Part shown: positions 10,609 through 45,104 of the stretch, piece after piece | Layout of the letters: each line of letters starts with the position of its first letter | Numbering within the stretch: position 1 is the stretch's first letter | Assembly: GCA_964016885.1 (NCBI GenBank) | Contig: OZ024742.1 | Location: forward strand, 160,890,001-160,954,000 | Source: Eledone cirrhosa | Lineage: Eukaryota | Length of the DNA stretch: 64,000 nucleotides | Reading direction: 5' to 3' | Translations under genes and position numbers: made by a program | The notes under the pieces: generated by a model | Told to the model about the DNA's origin: nothing | The model's database searches: none | The model's input: only the letters and a program-made list of their open reading frames with translations

Positions 10609-10813
10609 AACGAAGGAAATGTGGTAAGGAACCAGGTGGACCATAACGCACCAAAGTACTCAATACTTAGGGTAGTAGAGTGGGTAAGAGGAACGAGTAG
10701 GACCCCGACGGCTGAGCTCAAGCCGTTTCGACGGCTAATTCTGGACTAATTTTAGTCCAGAATTAGCCGTCGAAACGGCTTGAGCTTAGCCGTCGGGGTC
10801 CTACTTGTTCCTA
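10609..10813 (-). mobile_element. (TA)n-embedded palindromic module, family B, carrying the 3' half of a hammerhead ribozyme
   Basis: Copies at 25442-25634, 29099-29302, 36719-36905 and 44913-45104, with partial copies at 40066-40174, 47891-48025 and 50208-50250. GTC-GAAAC-GGC-TTGAGCTCA-GCC-GTC corresponds to GAAA plus stem III plus a GUC site. Confidence 0.8.
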
Positions 10814-11439
10814 TATATATATATGTATATATATATATATATATATATATATATATATATATATATATATATATATATATATATATATATATATATAGGA
10901 GAGACATGTATCATAAGAGTGGAGGAGAGAGAAAAAACTATGATACAATATATTAGACGCCAATAGCCGAAGCGAAGTGTGCTCAATGCATCTTGTGATT
11001 TGAATTTTCCTAGTATATTTCAAACGCCGTGTATAATTTTAATCAGTTTTTCCGATGATTTGATTAAGCATGCATTGTATTTAAAATTGAGTGACATAAC
11101 TTCAAGTGATTAACAATTTTTGGACAACTTAATCAATGAAACAATTGTTAATACTGTAAATAAAACCCTTTTTGTACTGTTGACTATGTTATTCTTTACT
11201 CTATCACTATTATTACTCCAAGATTAACCAGCATAGGAATTCCCGAGAACTTGCAATCTCGCTACCTAAGGAAACCTCTTGTTGAGTCAAACAACGCCGT
11301 ACGCTAAAACTACCCACATTACGGTGTATTCACAACCTCTAATTGGATTACCTATAACGATAATTTGTTATCCCACATATATATATATATACATCCTCAA
11401 ACCGATCACAACAACATATTTTAATATACACGAGGTGCA

Positions 11440-12052
11440 TCTGAGAACAGTGACTAATCCCTCGGAGGCTGAGGTCTGAAGAGCAACTAAAGAGCTCAAA
11501 TGTGGCAAGGCTGCTGGGGAGGATGAAATTCGGCCAGAGATGTTAAAAGCCTTAAATAGAGAAAGTATCCTCTGGCTAACTCAAGCGTACCGAGTAGCCT
11601 GAATCTCTGGAAAGGCACCTAAGCAATGGCAATCGGGAGTGATAATCACCATTTTGAAAATCAGAAAAAAAAAAGATTTTTCTGATTATAGAAAGATCTA
11701 CTTGTTAAACCTCTCCGGTAAAGTCTATGCAAAGTGTCTGGCAAAGAGATGTAGGGAGGTTGTCGAGTCCAAGCTAGCTGATGAACAGTGTTACTTTTGT
11801 TCCGAACACAGCACAACCAACCAAATATCCAAACTGCGTCAAGTCTTTGAGAAATTGTGGGAGTATTGCCAAGAGGTGTATTCTTGCATTCTAGACCCCG
11901 AAAAGGCGCAGGATCACGTTCCACGGGACATGCCATGGAAGGTACTGCAGGAGTATGGGATCGATGGTCAGCTTCTTGTCGCCTTAATATCTTTATATGA
12001 ATGCCTGAGTATATGTGTTCGGATAAATCGTGTTAAATCGAAACGATTCAGA
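11440..12052 (+). mobile_element. RTE-clade LINE reverse transcriptase fragment
   Basis: LKCGKAAGEDEIRPEMLKAL...WQSGVI...DYRKIYLLNLSGKVYAK...EQCYF...STTNQI..LRQVFEK.WEY...DPEKAQDHVPR. Confidence 0.85.
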
Positions 12053-12056
12053 TGGA

Positions 12057-12192
12057 CGTTTTTATCGACCTCGAAGGATGAAATGCAAAGACGACCTCGG
12101 CGAGATTTGAACTCAGAGCGCAGATAACCGTGACACGGATACATTAAATCATTCTACCGAACGTTCTAACGACTGTTCCAATTTGCTGCTCT
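12057..12192 (-). mobile_element. tRNA-derived SINE fragment
   Basis: TTTATCGACCTCGAAGGATGAAATGCAAAGACGACCTCGGCGAGATTTGAACTCAG. Confidence 0.75.
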
Positions 12193-41784: not shown

Positions 41785-42380
41785 TCGGAGTTGTACTTGT
41801 CTAGCAAGGGACTTCATCTAAGATAGTGTTTAAACTAAAACAATTACATTGCGAAAGAGTCATTTTAGCCACAGTTTTTCTTGTCTGGCAAATTACTTGA
41901 TCGAAGACTGTGTTGGAAGTAAAGGAATTACAACGTAGAAGAGTCATTTTAGCCACAGTTGTACTTGTCTGGCAAGTGACATAATCTGAGACCTGTGTTG
42001 AAAGTAAAGCAATTACATTGTAGAAGAGTCATTTTAGCCTCAGTTGTAATTGTCTCGCAAGTGAGATGATCTGAGACCTGTGTTGAAAGTAAAGCAATTA
42101 CATCGTAGAAGAGTCATTTTAGCCTCAGTTGTACTTGTCTCGCAAGTGACATGATCTGAGACTGTGTGTTGAAAGTAAAGCAATTACATCGTAGAAGAGT
42201 CATTTTAGCCTCAGTTGTAATTGTCTCGCAAGTGACATGATCTGAGACCTGTGTTGAAAGTAAAGCAATTACATCGTAGAAGAGTCATTTTAGCCTCAGT
42301 TGTACATGTGTGTCAAATGACATGATCTGAGACTGTGTTGAAACTGAAGCAATTATATTGTGGAAGAGTAATTTTAGTTA
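41785..42380. repeat. ~85-bp tandem repeat, about 7 copies
   Basis: GAAGAGTCATTTTAGCCTCAGTTGTACTTGTCTCGCAAGTGACATGATCTGAGACCTGTGTTGAAAGTAAAGCAATTACATCGTA. Confidence 0.9.
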
Positions 42381-43067
42381 TTCATTAAAACAAACAAAAT
42401 ATATGTAATTGTTTTTCTTTGAGTGAAACTTTTCCCCGCACTCTTTTGCGACCTGGTAACGGATACAGTTCTACTATCATTCTGAGTTGTGCCAATTACC
42501 AGGTACCGCGCGGTTCAATGAAAATTTCGACATCAAGAAATAAATGATAGATGTAACATAAAGACATCATATTTTGACGAAAATTTCGACATCAAGAAAT
42601 ATAATATAAAGACATCATATTTTGTTCGTGGTTTTTTTTTATTTAGTGCGCGTATGTGACTGTTTTTGAAAACCTAAAAGGACGAGACGCTTTCACGAAA
42701 ATACAAGTGCCAACTAATAAGTATTTAAACCGCAGCAGATTAAAATATTCTTCTGAAAGGCCAACTGTGAGACCTAATAATTAAGTTGTGAGAACAGACA
42801 CAAATAAAAGCTGCAGGAGTTGTTTCCGGGACTAGCAAAATAAGTAGGTTCTTACGTTGGCGTAAAACCAGAACTACATTCACAAAGATTATAAAGATTG
42901 TACGTGTCTGTACTGCATATATACACGCTCATATACTTATACGCTTATATATATACATATATATAAATATGTGTGTGTGTGTGTATGTGTGCGCGCGTGT
43001 GTGTATGTGTGCTTCCTCTTCACGCACTCCATCTCTCTATTTTATCTTTTATTTATTTCTCATTCTA

Positions 43068-43102
43068 ATTTCTGATGAAGGACTTGTGCCCGAAACGTAA
43101 AT
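43068..43102 (+). ncRNA. Minimal hammerhead ribozyme
   Basis: ATTT-CTGATGA-AGGACTTGTGCCC-GAAACGTA-AAT. Related to family D; the module ends at (TA)n near 43168. Confidence 0.65.
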
Positions 43103-44912
43103 ACTATTTGTCTAATATATTTCTTGTATTGTGTTGTTTTCTTTGTTGTTTCTGTTTTAATTTTTGCATATATATATATATATATGTATTGAAATATCCG
43201 TTGAAAATATATATATATTTGCATATATGAATATCTATATATATGTGTATATATATGTATATGTATATATGTACACACATATATATATACACACACACAC
43301 ACACATACATATTCATATATACATCTAAAACAAAATTGTAAAATTATAATATAAAATTAAATTAAGTCATTCTTTTTTTTTAAATATATGTATACATATA
43401 CATATTTATATATACATATAAATACACACAAGCATACACAAACACACACACATATACACACCCCCATACAACACATATAAAGTGATTGATCACGGTTGTT
43501 AACACCTTTCATTGTATTATAGTTCACCTCAATCAGGGCTGGCCTGGAGGTAATAAAAAATATGACAATTTGTAAAAGAAGTTCTAATATCAGGAATAAT
43601 TTAGGTTAAAACCAAATGATTTATTTTTATTAGAAAGAGAAAAAAATTGAAAGACTGCTTTAATCGTATGTCTAAAACATACTAAATAGTATATTAGAAT
43701 GAAATAAGGAAGCCATATATATTTGTAAGCATGTTTCATTATTTTAAAGTCGGTTTTTAACATAGAGACAAGACTTTCATTGGAATAGAGACGTCAACTC
43801 GGTAAATATGTCTGCATGTCTGCATGCGTGCGTGTCTGTGCGTGTGTTTATGTGTATGCGTGTGTATTTGTGTGTGTGTGTGTGTGTGTGTGTGTGTGTG
43901 TGTGAATGTATGTGTGTTAATGTGAGTGTGTGTGTGTGTGTGTGTGTGTGTGTGTGTGTGTGTGTGTGTGTGTGTGTGTGTGTGTGTGTGTGTGTGTGTG
44001 TGTGTGGATGTAAGTATGGATGTCATTGCATGTGTGGATCTGTATGCTTTGAGTTATGTGTACACGTGCATATGTTTTGTATCTGTTCAAGTGTATATGC
44101 AGTTATTACATGCAGAATTTTTGAAATGTTTTGCATATTTTTACAGTTCCATCAATGGGTTGTACTTGTAACTTCCGAATTAGTCATGTTCTTAGTCGTT
44201 ATGTATGTATATATGTATATATGTATGATGCATGTATGTATGTGTGTGTGTGTATGTATGAGTGTATGTATGTATGTATGTATGTATGTATGCATATATG
44301 TATGTATATATGTATGGTGTATGTATGTGTGCATGCATGTGTGTATGTATGTGTGTATATATTTATGTATGTATGTATATATGTATGAGTGTATGTATCT
44401 ATGATGTATGTATGTATATATGTATGTATGTATGTGTTTGTGTTCTGCACTCGTATTGATATATTTGATATTTAAGTTTGGATTAGAGTATAAGGCTTGA
44501 TTTAAACATATATATATATATATATATATATATATATATATATATATATATATATATATATATATATATATATATATATAAATATGAACACATGTTTGTA
44601 TGTATGTGTGTGTGTATGTGTGTGTATGTATATGTATATATATATATATATAATATAAATATTTTCTCATAACGACTTGTGACTCGTACACTTATTCATT
44701 TATATATATATATGTGTGTATGTGTGTGTGTGTGCGTGCATATATATATATATATATATATATATATATATATATATATATATATATATATATATACAGA
44801 TATATATAGTTGTTATTTATTCAAAGTTTATAACTGAAATTACACAATGCCGCCTATGCGTTTCGTGGTATATATGAATATATATGAATATATATATATA
44901 TATATATATATA

Positions 44913-45104
44913 TAGGAGTAAGTAAGACCCCGACGGCTGAGCTCAAGCCGTTTCGACGGCTAATTCTGTACAGAATTAGCCGTCGAAACGGCTTGAGCTC
45001 AGCCGTCGGGGTCTTGCTTACTCCTATTACCCACTCTACTACCCTAAGTATTGAGTAATTTGGTGCGTTATGGTCCACCTGGTTCCTTACCACTTTTCCC
45101 TCGC
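44913..45104 (+). mobile_element. Family B palindromic half-HHR module (opposite orientation)
   Basis: Reverse complement of the 10609-type module; (TA)n on both sides. Confidence 0.8.

What the first reader, a model, noticed from the sequence alone, without database searches (positions are those of the whole stretch)
10609..45104. Family B: five palindromic copies that all fold back at ribozyme stem II and lack the CUGANGA half
Seen: copies at 10609, 25442, 29099, 36719 and 44913 have the HHR 3' half (GAAAC-GGC-loop-GCC-GTC) mirrored around GACGGCTAATT...AATTAGCCGTC. The centres differ (CTGGACTAATTTTAGTCCAG, CTGTCCAG, CAGGACCAATTTGGTCCTG, CAGTCCAG, CTGTACAG), and the short arm usually ends at CCTAT running into (AT)n. 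Inference: nascent cDNA repeatedly self-primes on the ribozyme hairpin and then joins the target through TA microhomology, so the ribozyme structure dictates the inversion breakpoint and destroys its own core.
Basis: partly seen in the sequence, partly recalled or inferred. Interest (0 to 1): 0.75.

Follow-up and report, generated by a model that had tools for sequence, protein, structure and literature searches.

The report
Penelope stubs meeting at RNA start
The five mirror-image repeats are among more than 12,000 short back-to-back copies of a Penelope-type jumping gene, and they likely stop inside its self-cutting RNA motif because the element's RNA likely begins there and is likely copied from both ends of a DNA cut, rather than folding back on the motif's hairpin.

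Summary
The five palindromes are real. They belong to a family with 12,139 exact-flank short palindromes genome-wide. The parent is a 3,543-bp Hydra-clade Penelope-like retrotransposon with an intact 786-residue RT-endonuclease frame. Its hammerhead is whole but reads UUGANAA (known U3-A8 variant), which is why CUGANGA searches miss it. Copies arose independently: centres are diverse and arms share lineage variants. Fold-back on stem II is not supported. Breakpoints pile up 11-22 nt before GAAAC, before the loop. Arms are often not nested, and loop-retaining products are rare. Short and long arms almost never pair (1 of 18), ruling out an independent RT stall, and arm ends at A(-18)/A(-13) carry excess untemplated G. 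Best reading: both nicked target strands prime cDNA either side of the 77-nt 'tail' near the 5' end of a capped RNA that starts inside the ribozyme. Both run off and are joined. Inverted copies and tails are known; this reading was not found in print. This scan reached it earlier for other palindromes in this genome, and those notes changed my reading.

The parts
10610..10814 (.). Copy 1: tail arm (minus strand, +119 to -20) head-to-head with tail-less arm (plus strand, -21 to +42); G of GAAAC = 0. Lineage CCTACTCGTT, whose long parent has core CTGAGAA
25443..25635 (.). Copy 2: young lineage, tail arm to -14, tail-less arm to -17, 1-nt overlap; arms identical to the pLTR of the intact parent (core TTGAGAA)
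29100..29303 (.). Copy 3: lineage CCTACTCGTT; arms reach about -20/-21 (read by eye) and share two private changes in the centre
36721..36913 (.). Copy 4: older AAATAGCC lineage, tail arm to -12, tail-less arm to -18, blunt join; long parents have core TTGAAAA
44912..45104 (.). Copy 5: opposite orientation, lineage CTTACTTACT (1,720 arms); both arms reach -17 of its own parent (core TTGACAA), overlapping by GTAC
25563..25592 (.). Centre of copy 2: the two 5' ends on the 3' strand of helix II, at the inferred RNA start (-18 to -11)
25593..25621 (+). 3' half of the type I hammerhead: GAAAC, stem III with palindromic loop, GTC cleavage triplet, stem I 3' strand GGGGTC
25443..25519 (-). 77-nt Penelope 'tail' present on one arm only
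   Evidence: definition in PMC8557442 and PMC11167929
47892..48028 (.). Diverged-lineage copy whose arms barely overlap: tail-less arm +42 to about -3, tail arm about +38 to the tail end; cannot be a fold-back copy
   Evidence: read by eye
40065..40175 (+). Single tail arm, 5' end near +11, flanked by (TA)n
50200..50256 (-). Single tail-less arm of the diverged lineage, 5' end near -14

Best explanation
Each palindrome is an independent insertion of two short copies of a Hydra-clade Penelope-like retrotransposon's terminal repeat, likely made when both nicked strands of a (TA)n target prime reverse transcription on the element's RNA and both cDNAs likely run off a capped 5' end predicted to lie inside helix II of the hammerhead. 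Steps: (1) Shown: the parent is a 3,543-bp unit, found in tandem, with one RT-GIY-YIG frame and a UUGANAA hammerhead in its pLTR. (2) Inferred: transcription starts in the upstream pLTR, mainly at A(-18) in an initiator-like YYAGT, also near -22, -13 and -11, so the front of the mRNA holds only the 3' half of the ribozyme and the whole ribozyme lies at the back. (3) Shown as geometry, inferred as chemistry: one cDNA starts at the tail end (+119) and the other at CCTAT (+42). (4) Inferred: priming at the front pLTR gives two short cDNAs that end at the cap, about four in five events; priming at the back pLTR gives long, randomly truncated arms. (5) Shown: the two 5' ends are joined head-to-head with 0-1 nt overlap or short filler; whether the RT or host end-joining does this is unknown.
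For: Parent. Hydra motifs. Two start points: 124 of 143 pairs have one tailed and one tail-less arm; a Penelope protein cuts and extends both strands from two sites flanking the tail in vitro (PMC11167929). Not nested: the tail-less arm reaches further in 10 of 17 simple long pairs, the tail arm in 5, about equal in 2; in 13 of 100 tail-anchored copies the partner holds 25 nt or more that the tail arm lacks. Sharp end: 74 of 97 young arms end at -11 to -22, a rate of 0.14 per nt against 0.008 just downstream and 0 ends in 504 nt of exposure upstream; 56 of 100 tail arms end at -11 to -23 (reconciled by hand). Both arms stop there although their start points are 77 nt apart. Length class is shared: 1 of 18 pairs with a long arm has a hotspot partner, against 88-91% expected from independent stalling (P<1e-14). 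Cap-like mark: untemplated G precedes 14 of 25 ends at A(-18)/A(-13) against 13 of 57 other ends (one-sided Fisher P=0.004), and 7 of 8 in the copy-5 lineage; such G's are read as caps in L1 (PMC4859970). TTAGT/TCAGT at -20 to -16 is kept in most long arms and in a diverged lineage. Some centres hold (TA)n or other filler, as expected for a two-ended join.
Against: No RNA data were available, so neither start site nor cap is observed. In the young lineage the base before A(-18) is C in 6, G in 3 and A in 1 of 10 cases, which a plain cap-G does not explain. Ends at G(-17) are as common as at A(-18) (34 versus 32), and ends spread over 12 nt. The G test counts both arms of some insertions, and the two positions were chosen after seeing the data. 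Of the copies mapped that span a full unit, only L253 ends at the hotspot of the upstream pLTR; L196, L197 and L187-189 run further and need multimeric or circular RNA (these three came from a pattern that required passing -21). Later deletion inside palindromes could create some asymmetry. The initiator consensus is recalled, not tested. Samples come mostly from the first 92 Mb of one contig.
Confidence: 0.68

Rival explanations
1. Twin priming as above, but the RT stalls at helix II (RNA structure, bound protein, or a nascent cDNA hairpin) on a full-length RNA instead of running off an end.
For: The hotspot covers the internal loop and upper stem of the predicted helix II, and the nascent cDNA forms a 6-bp hairpin 4-14 nt behind the stops. 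Two copies jump from -17/-18 to upstream element sequence (L253, L320).
Against: Independent stalls predict mostly mixed short/long pairs; 1 of 18 was seen. RT passes the stronger stems I, III and IIa. The upper stem is poorly kept (69% of cells paired). A stall does not explain the untemplated G.
Confidence: 0.1
2. Short copies keep an internal promoter and serve as templates themselves (SINE-like amplification by the PLE protein), with the centre remade each time.
For: Short copies greatly outnumber long ones. At least 38 copies are nearly identical over all 190 bp. Penelope has an internal promoter (PMC2377424).
Against: Copies 1, 2, 3 and 5 have long parents matching their lineage sites, and copy 4 has long relatives 3 changes away. 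The variant marking copy 2 occurs with many centres and in 7 of 30 inspected copies that are long. The same centre occurs in both orientations relative to the tail. Identical copies are expected from a recurrent junction.
Confidence: 0.1
3. One reading: a single cDNA folds back and self-primes, using stem II or local microhomology, then joins the target by TA homology.
For: Arms share lineage variants. About 10 loci among 100 listed rows keep the native loop between upper-stem strands. Some centres show short snap-back fillers (L063, L270). Self-priming is proposed in PMC3846280.
Against: Arms are not nested, and in 7 of 100 copies they do not overlap at all (window 47892-48028). Either arm can be longer. 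None of the 100 listed rows shows lower-stem fold-back. L444 has arms from two lineages. Most joins have 0-1 nt overlap.
Confidence: 0.07
4. A MITE-like DNA element from one palindromic master, or an assembly artefact.
For: Many near-identical copies; palindromes in (TA)n are hard to assemble.
Against: Continuous with an RT-coding parent; unequal termini; diverse centres. Raw reads of three other samples show the arm-(TA)n ends, and two contigs of an independent run bridge a related centre by 35 nt or more on each side. No long reads were available.
Confidence: 0.02

Closest known systems
Hydra clade of C-terminal EN+ Penelope-like elements (Craig et al. 2021, PMC8557442; passages, section 11, supplement search and part 2 of 59 read)
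   Same: Single ORF with RT then GIY-YIG; RWR (for RWK), DKT, CxCX5C linker, CxxC and CxH around E/N; (TA)n targets; partial tandems; inverted 5'-truncated copy; tail on one end; hammerhead in the pLTR.
   Different: Unit is 3.5 kb (theirs generally under 3 kb). Tail is 77 nt (30-40 typical). All Hydra hammerheads in their File S2 have CTGA cores, while this one is UUGANAA with a roughly 55-nt helix II domain. Their Hydra-1_oBim hammerhead is a different sequence. No breakpoint hotspot was described in the parts read.
PAc (Poseidon, Anolis) in vitro TPRT (Frangieh et al. 2024, PMC11167929; parts 1-2 of 4 read)
   Same: Two internal RT start sites flanking the tail, both target strands cut and extended, AT-rich target, ribozyme cleavage not needed for insertion.
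   Different: Different clade; those parts do not address how inverted copies form or where cDNAs end.
L1 twin priming and 5' untemplated G (review PMC4859970, passages)
   Same: Two primed cDNAs joined as an inversion with small indels; extra G read as the cap.
   Different: L1 primes at poly(A) and its two segments do not overlap (recalled); here both starts are fixed internal sites and the cDNAs usually overlap, giving palindromes.
U3-A8 hammerhead variants (Cervera & de la Pena 2014, PMC4209133, parts 1-2 of 4; Perreault et al. 2011, PMC3088659, passages)
   Same: U3-A8 replaces C3-G8; reported in Schistosoma Penelope elements and as active in vitro.
   Different: Here stem III is 5 bp with a 9-nt palindromic loop, and one lineage has a C3-A8 mismatch.
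Self-priming model for Penelope palindromes (Arkhipova et al. 2013, PMC3846280, passages)
   Same: Head-to-head inverted pLTRs with palindromic junctions.
   Different: That model needs an antisense template and nested arms; these data point to two primings on a sense RNA.

Membership tests
Hydra-clade PLE (parent) | Single ORF, RT followed by C-terminal GIY-YIG | tested here: met
   786-residue frame with FDIESYY/YRDD and VIYQ..YIG motifs read directly. Pfam gave no hit on the whole protein and only GIY-YIG at E=0.069 on an old copy; no PDB hit; 2,185 mostly unnamed relatives, best 39-54% identical.
Hydra-clade PLE (parent) | RWK motif and DKG changed to DKT | tested here: met
   KRLRWR (conservative R for K) and HSDKTG
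Hydra-clade PLE (parent) | CxCX5C linker; CxxC and CxH flanking E and N | tested here: met
   CNCPDRSIC; CNLCSEE...NKK...CKH
Hydra-clade PLE (parent) | (TA)n insertion, tandem/inverted structure, tail | tested here: met
Hydra-clade PLE (parent) | Canonical CUGANGA hammerhead in the pLTR | tested here: not met
   All 76 distinct hammerheads recovered by a pattern allowing A or G at position 8 have A8 (66 U3, 10 C3). A hammerhead is present but variant.
Hydra-clade PLE (parent) | Placement in the Hydra clade by RT phylogeny | not tested
   Named reference proteins were not available as tool sequences
Type I hammerhead ribozyme (U3-A8 variant) | Three helices around the core, GAAA and NUH site | tested here: met
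   Unconstrained fold gives the three-way junction; 87% of cells paired in 13 representatives; position 7 takes A, G, C or T
Type I hammerhead ribozyme (U3-A8 variant) | Covariation or profile match | tested here: inconclusive
   No two-sided change among closely related copies; fold z = -0.85; no Rfam hammerhead match
Type I hammerhead ribozyme (U3-A8 variant) | Self-cleavage | not testable with these tools
   No clear pile-up of tail-arm ends at the predicted cut: 4 of 100 end at +20 to +24
MITE | Equal terminal inverted repeats, fixed internal sequence, DNA-transposon partner | tested here: not met
   Unequal ends, 66 centres in 86 pairs, RT parent
Animal non-LTR retrozyme | Tandem short units each with a complete hammerhead | tested here: not met
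   Short copies are head-to-head and carry half the motif; definition in bioRxiv 10.64898/2026.07.22.740005, part 1 of 5

The most novel reading that the evidence does not exclude
This Penelope element starts its capped RNA inside its own hammerhead, so the mRNA front carries a half ribozyme that cannot cut it. Its RT primes from both target strands at two sites flanking the tail on one sense RNA, so about four in five insertions are palindromic records of the RNA's 5' end. That would replace the antisense self-priming model for Penelope inverted repeats and map a promoter from DNA alone.
Probability: 0.5. Interest if true: 0.65.

Novelty: new variant of a known kind. Interest (0 to 1): 0.47.

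Why it matters
How Penelope-like elements build their inverted ends, which RNA strand they copy and what their hammerhead does are open questions (PMC8557442, PMC11167929). This family offers an intact young parent and more than 12,000 natural products whose geometry separates fold-back, stalling and run-off, giving sharp predictions for CAGE and in vitro TPRT. The copies also seed the genome with thousands of near-perfect 55-65-bp hairpins, and the variant core shows why CUGANGA searches undercount ribozymes. The building blocks (inverted copy, tail, U3-A8 core, twin priming in L1) are each known, which limits surprise.

Tried and rejected
Canonical parent: CTGANGA patterns gave 66 hits (control 21; 23 loci read) and 49 hits (30 loci read). 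None read had a paired helix II; those with family sequence were junction coincidences. My first reading, an RT stall at helix II, was dropped after the mixed-pair test. A short-only master for copy 5 was suspected after (46 hits, no exact long parent) and rejected when the true parent proved to differ at -19. Rfam on the window gave only microsatellite-driven miRNA hits among the 150 listed. RAD reads are cut at the AATT in the centre, so could not test copy 2. No RNA holder listed. The substitution spectrum of young arms was dominated by lineage variants and says nothing on RNA editing. One search had an off-by-one error, one search lacked coordinates, and one search used a misregistered structure. 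In one search, reach values of 25 are artefacts of mismatch tolerance, so its longer-arm tally (28/32/18) is approximate; that sample mixes selected loci and omits L001-L030. Three of 100 arms were dropped as other lineages. L499 and L500 could not be resolved for partner status. Look-ups of earlier findings near the window and by sequence were empty.
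Full report
Coordinates below are relative to the G of GAAAC (0), on the element's sense strand. GTC is +20 to +22, CCTAT ends at +42, and the tail ends at +119.

Observation. The five palindromes are present with the quoted centres. Each has one arm ending at CCTAT/CATAT into (TA)n and one carrying 77 nt more. The window is G000:C3:160,890,001-160,954,000 of a 3.0-Gb genome. Exact patterns count 12,139 short palindromes, 22,914 tail ends, 12,588 arms of the young lineage of copy 2 and 1,720 arms of the lineage of copy 5. 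All four controls were 0. An artefact is unlikely: raw reads of three other samples show the arm-(TA)n ends, and two contigs of an independent run bridge a related centre by 35 nt or more on each side. No long reads were available.

Parent. Searches for CTGANGA ahead of the motif found no paired helix II in the loci read (23 of 66 and 30 of 49). Longer copies showed CCCC-TTGAAAA instead; that pattern has 948 matches. Among 76 distinct complete hammerheads in fetched loci, position 8 is always A, position 7 is A, G, C or T, and position 3 is U in 66 and C in 10. U3-A8 is a known natural covariation, active in vitro (PMC3088659) and seen in Schistosoma Penelope elements (PMC4209133). The young parent folds unconstrained into the three-way junction, but there is no covariation, no Rfam match and no unusual stability. 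Activity is untested, and the lineage of copies 1 and 3 has a C3-A8 mismatch. A tandem array at C1:91.47-91.49 Mb has a 3,543-bp unit with an intact 786-residue frame carrying the Hydra-clade motifs listed by Craig et al.. Pfam and PDB searches were blank. Copies 1, 2, 3 and 5 have long parents matching their lineage sites; copy 4 has long relatives 3 changes away.

Independent events. There are 66 distinct centres in 86 short pairs (mixed sample). Arms are identical at 13 lineage sites in 64 of 86 pairs, against a shuffled mean of 30 and maximum of 40. The variant marking copy 2 (92 matches) occurs with many centres and in 7 long copies among 30 read. The 38 or more near-identical 190-bp copies are therefore explained by a recurrent junction and need no master.

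Where arms end. Among the first 100 young arms (3 dropped as other lineages), 74 of 97 end at -11 to -22, 14 end closer, and 9 pass. Rates are 0.14, 0.008 and 0 in 504 nt just upstream. Genome-wide, 2,735 of 12,588 young arms (22%) reach -21, somewhat more than in this sample (13 of 97). Among the first 100 tail arms, 56 end at -11 to -23, 37 earlier, 1 near -30 and 6 are long (reconciled by hand). This stretch is the 3' strand of helix II, short of the loop.

Against fold-back. A cDNA that stops before the loop cannot use stem II to prime. A pattern for loop-spanning centres gave 269 rows; among the 100 listed, about 10 loci keep the native loop of the upper stem and none shows lower-stem fold-back (by eye; the upper-stem test covers the older lineage only). 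One tailed and one tail-less arm is the rule (124 of 143 pairs), also in kilobase-long pairs. There the tail-less arm reaches further in 10 of 17 simple pairs, so neither arm contains the other. In 13 of 100 tail-anchored copies the partner has 25 nt or more absent from the tail arm, and in 7 the arms do not overlap; window 47892-48028 is a similar case. L444 joins arms of two lineages. Some centres contain (TA)n or other filler. This fits two primings, as in L1 twin priming (PMC4859970), and a Penelope protein that extends both strands from two sites around the tail (PMC11167929). Later deletion could explain single cases. Shared rare variants (15 symmetric against 27 one-sided changes in 93 young pairs) suggest one RNA or one source locus in most events; gene conversion is not excluded.

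Stall or RNA end. I first read the hotspot as an RT stall. Earlier notes of this scan on other palindromes in this genome proposed a capped RNA start, so I tested both. All young-pattern long arms in the first 91.7 Mb of C1 were classified: 17 long-long pairs (one inferred from spacing), 4 with a partner ending at +34 or later, 1 with a hotspot partner, 14 single and 2 unresolved. Independent stalling predicts 88-91% mixed among pairs where both arms reach the region; 1 of 18 gives P<1e-14. Length class is thus shared by both arms, as expected if priming occurs at either the front or the back pLTR of one RNA. At junctions not explained by the partner arm, G precedes 14 of 25 ends at A(-18)/A(-13) against 13 of 57 elsewhere (P=0.004), and 7 of 8 at -18 in the copy-5 lineage, whose parent has C there. 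TTAGT or TCAGT surrounds A(-18) in most long arms and in a diverged lineage, resembling an initiator (consensus recalled). D. virilis Penelope starts in its pLTR from an internal promoter (PMC2377424; PMC6765202). Against this reading: the young lineage shows C more often than G before -18; -17 is as common as -18; positions were chosen post hoc; some insertions are counted twice; and no RNA was seen.

Mechanism. Shown: parent, two start points, non-nested arms, hotspot, shared length class, joins with 0-1 nt overlap (44 of 86, an undercount given the reach artefact). Inferred: a capped start inside helix II, priming near the RNA front, run-off, and the joining enzyme. On this reading the 5' core is missing because it is upstream of the RNA start, not because fold-back destroys it.

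Known and new. The inverted truncated copy, the tail, (TA)n targeting and a self-priming hypothesis are in print (PMC8557442, PMC3846280). Eight searches (listings only, apart from the papers named) showed no paper on twin priming or cap run-off for Penelope palindromes, nor on this family; subscription journals are not covered. A recent cephalopod repeat annotation mentions Penelope-like families without such detail (PMC13282606, passages). Verdict: a new variant of a known kind, interest 0.47.

Noticed in passing
G000:C1:91,473,173-91,493,757 (L187-L189): Four full tandem 3,543-bp units plus a partial one, 99.7-100% alike, then about 65 copies of a 55-bp internal repeat, then an inverted tail-less arm. 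Suggests copying of a multimeric or circular RNA with RT slippage.
   Followed up: partly
L190, L191, L192, L502, L503: Five long arms end at -3197 to -3294, within the first 45 codons of the ORF; three were fetched because they were long, so the cluster may be biased.
   Followed up: no
window 29220-29260: Both arms of copy 3 lack A(-18) and A(-13), the two inferred start bases, and reach about -21.
   Followed up: no
family-wide, -8 to +7: AGCCGT-CGAA-ACGGCT can form an alternative hairpin that dominates when the RNA starts at -18; a possible switch between front and back pLTR folds.
   Followed up: partly
L394, L395, L401, L404, L437: A lineage with a CTGAGAA core (C3-A8 mismatch, likely weak or dead) has many copies, fitting reports that cleavage is not needed for insertion.
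   Followed up: partly
window 3603-3748, 22054-22510, 26981-27325, 36077-36270, 43053-43097, 58709-58866, 61447-62051: Other repeat families with canonical CTGA(T/A)GA..GAAA motifs, some as head-to-head pairs; probably other Penelope-like families.
   Followed up: no
window 18243-21569 and 41789-42377: Tandem arrays with periods of about 36/72 bp and 84 bp.
   Followed up: no
window 23146-24626, 33866-34401, 46662-47483: Further long inverted-repeat structures of unrelated sequence.
   Followed up: no
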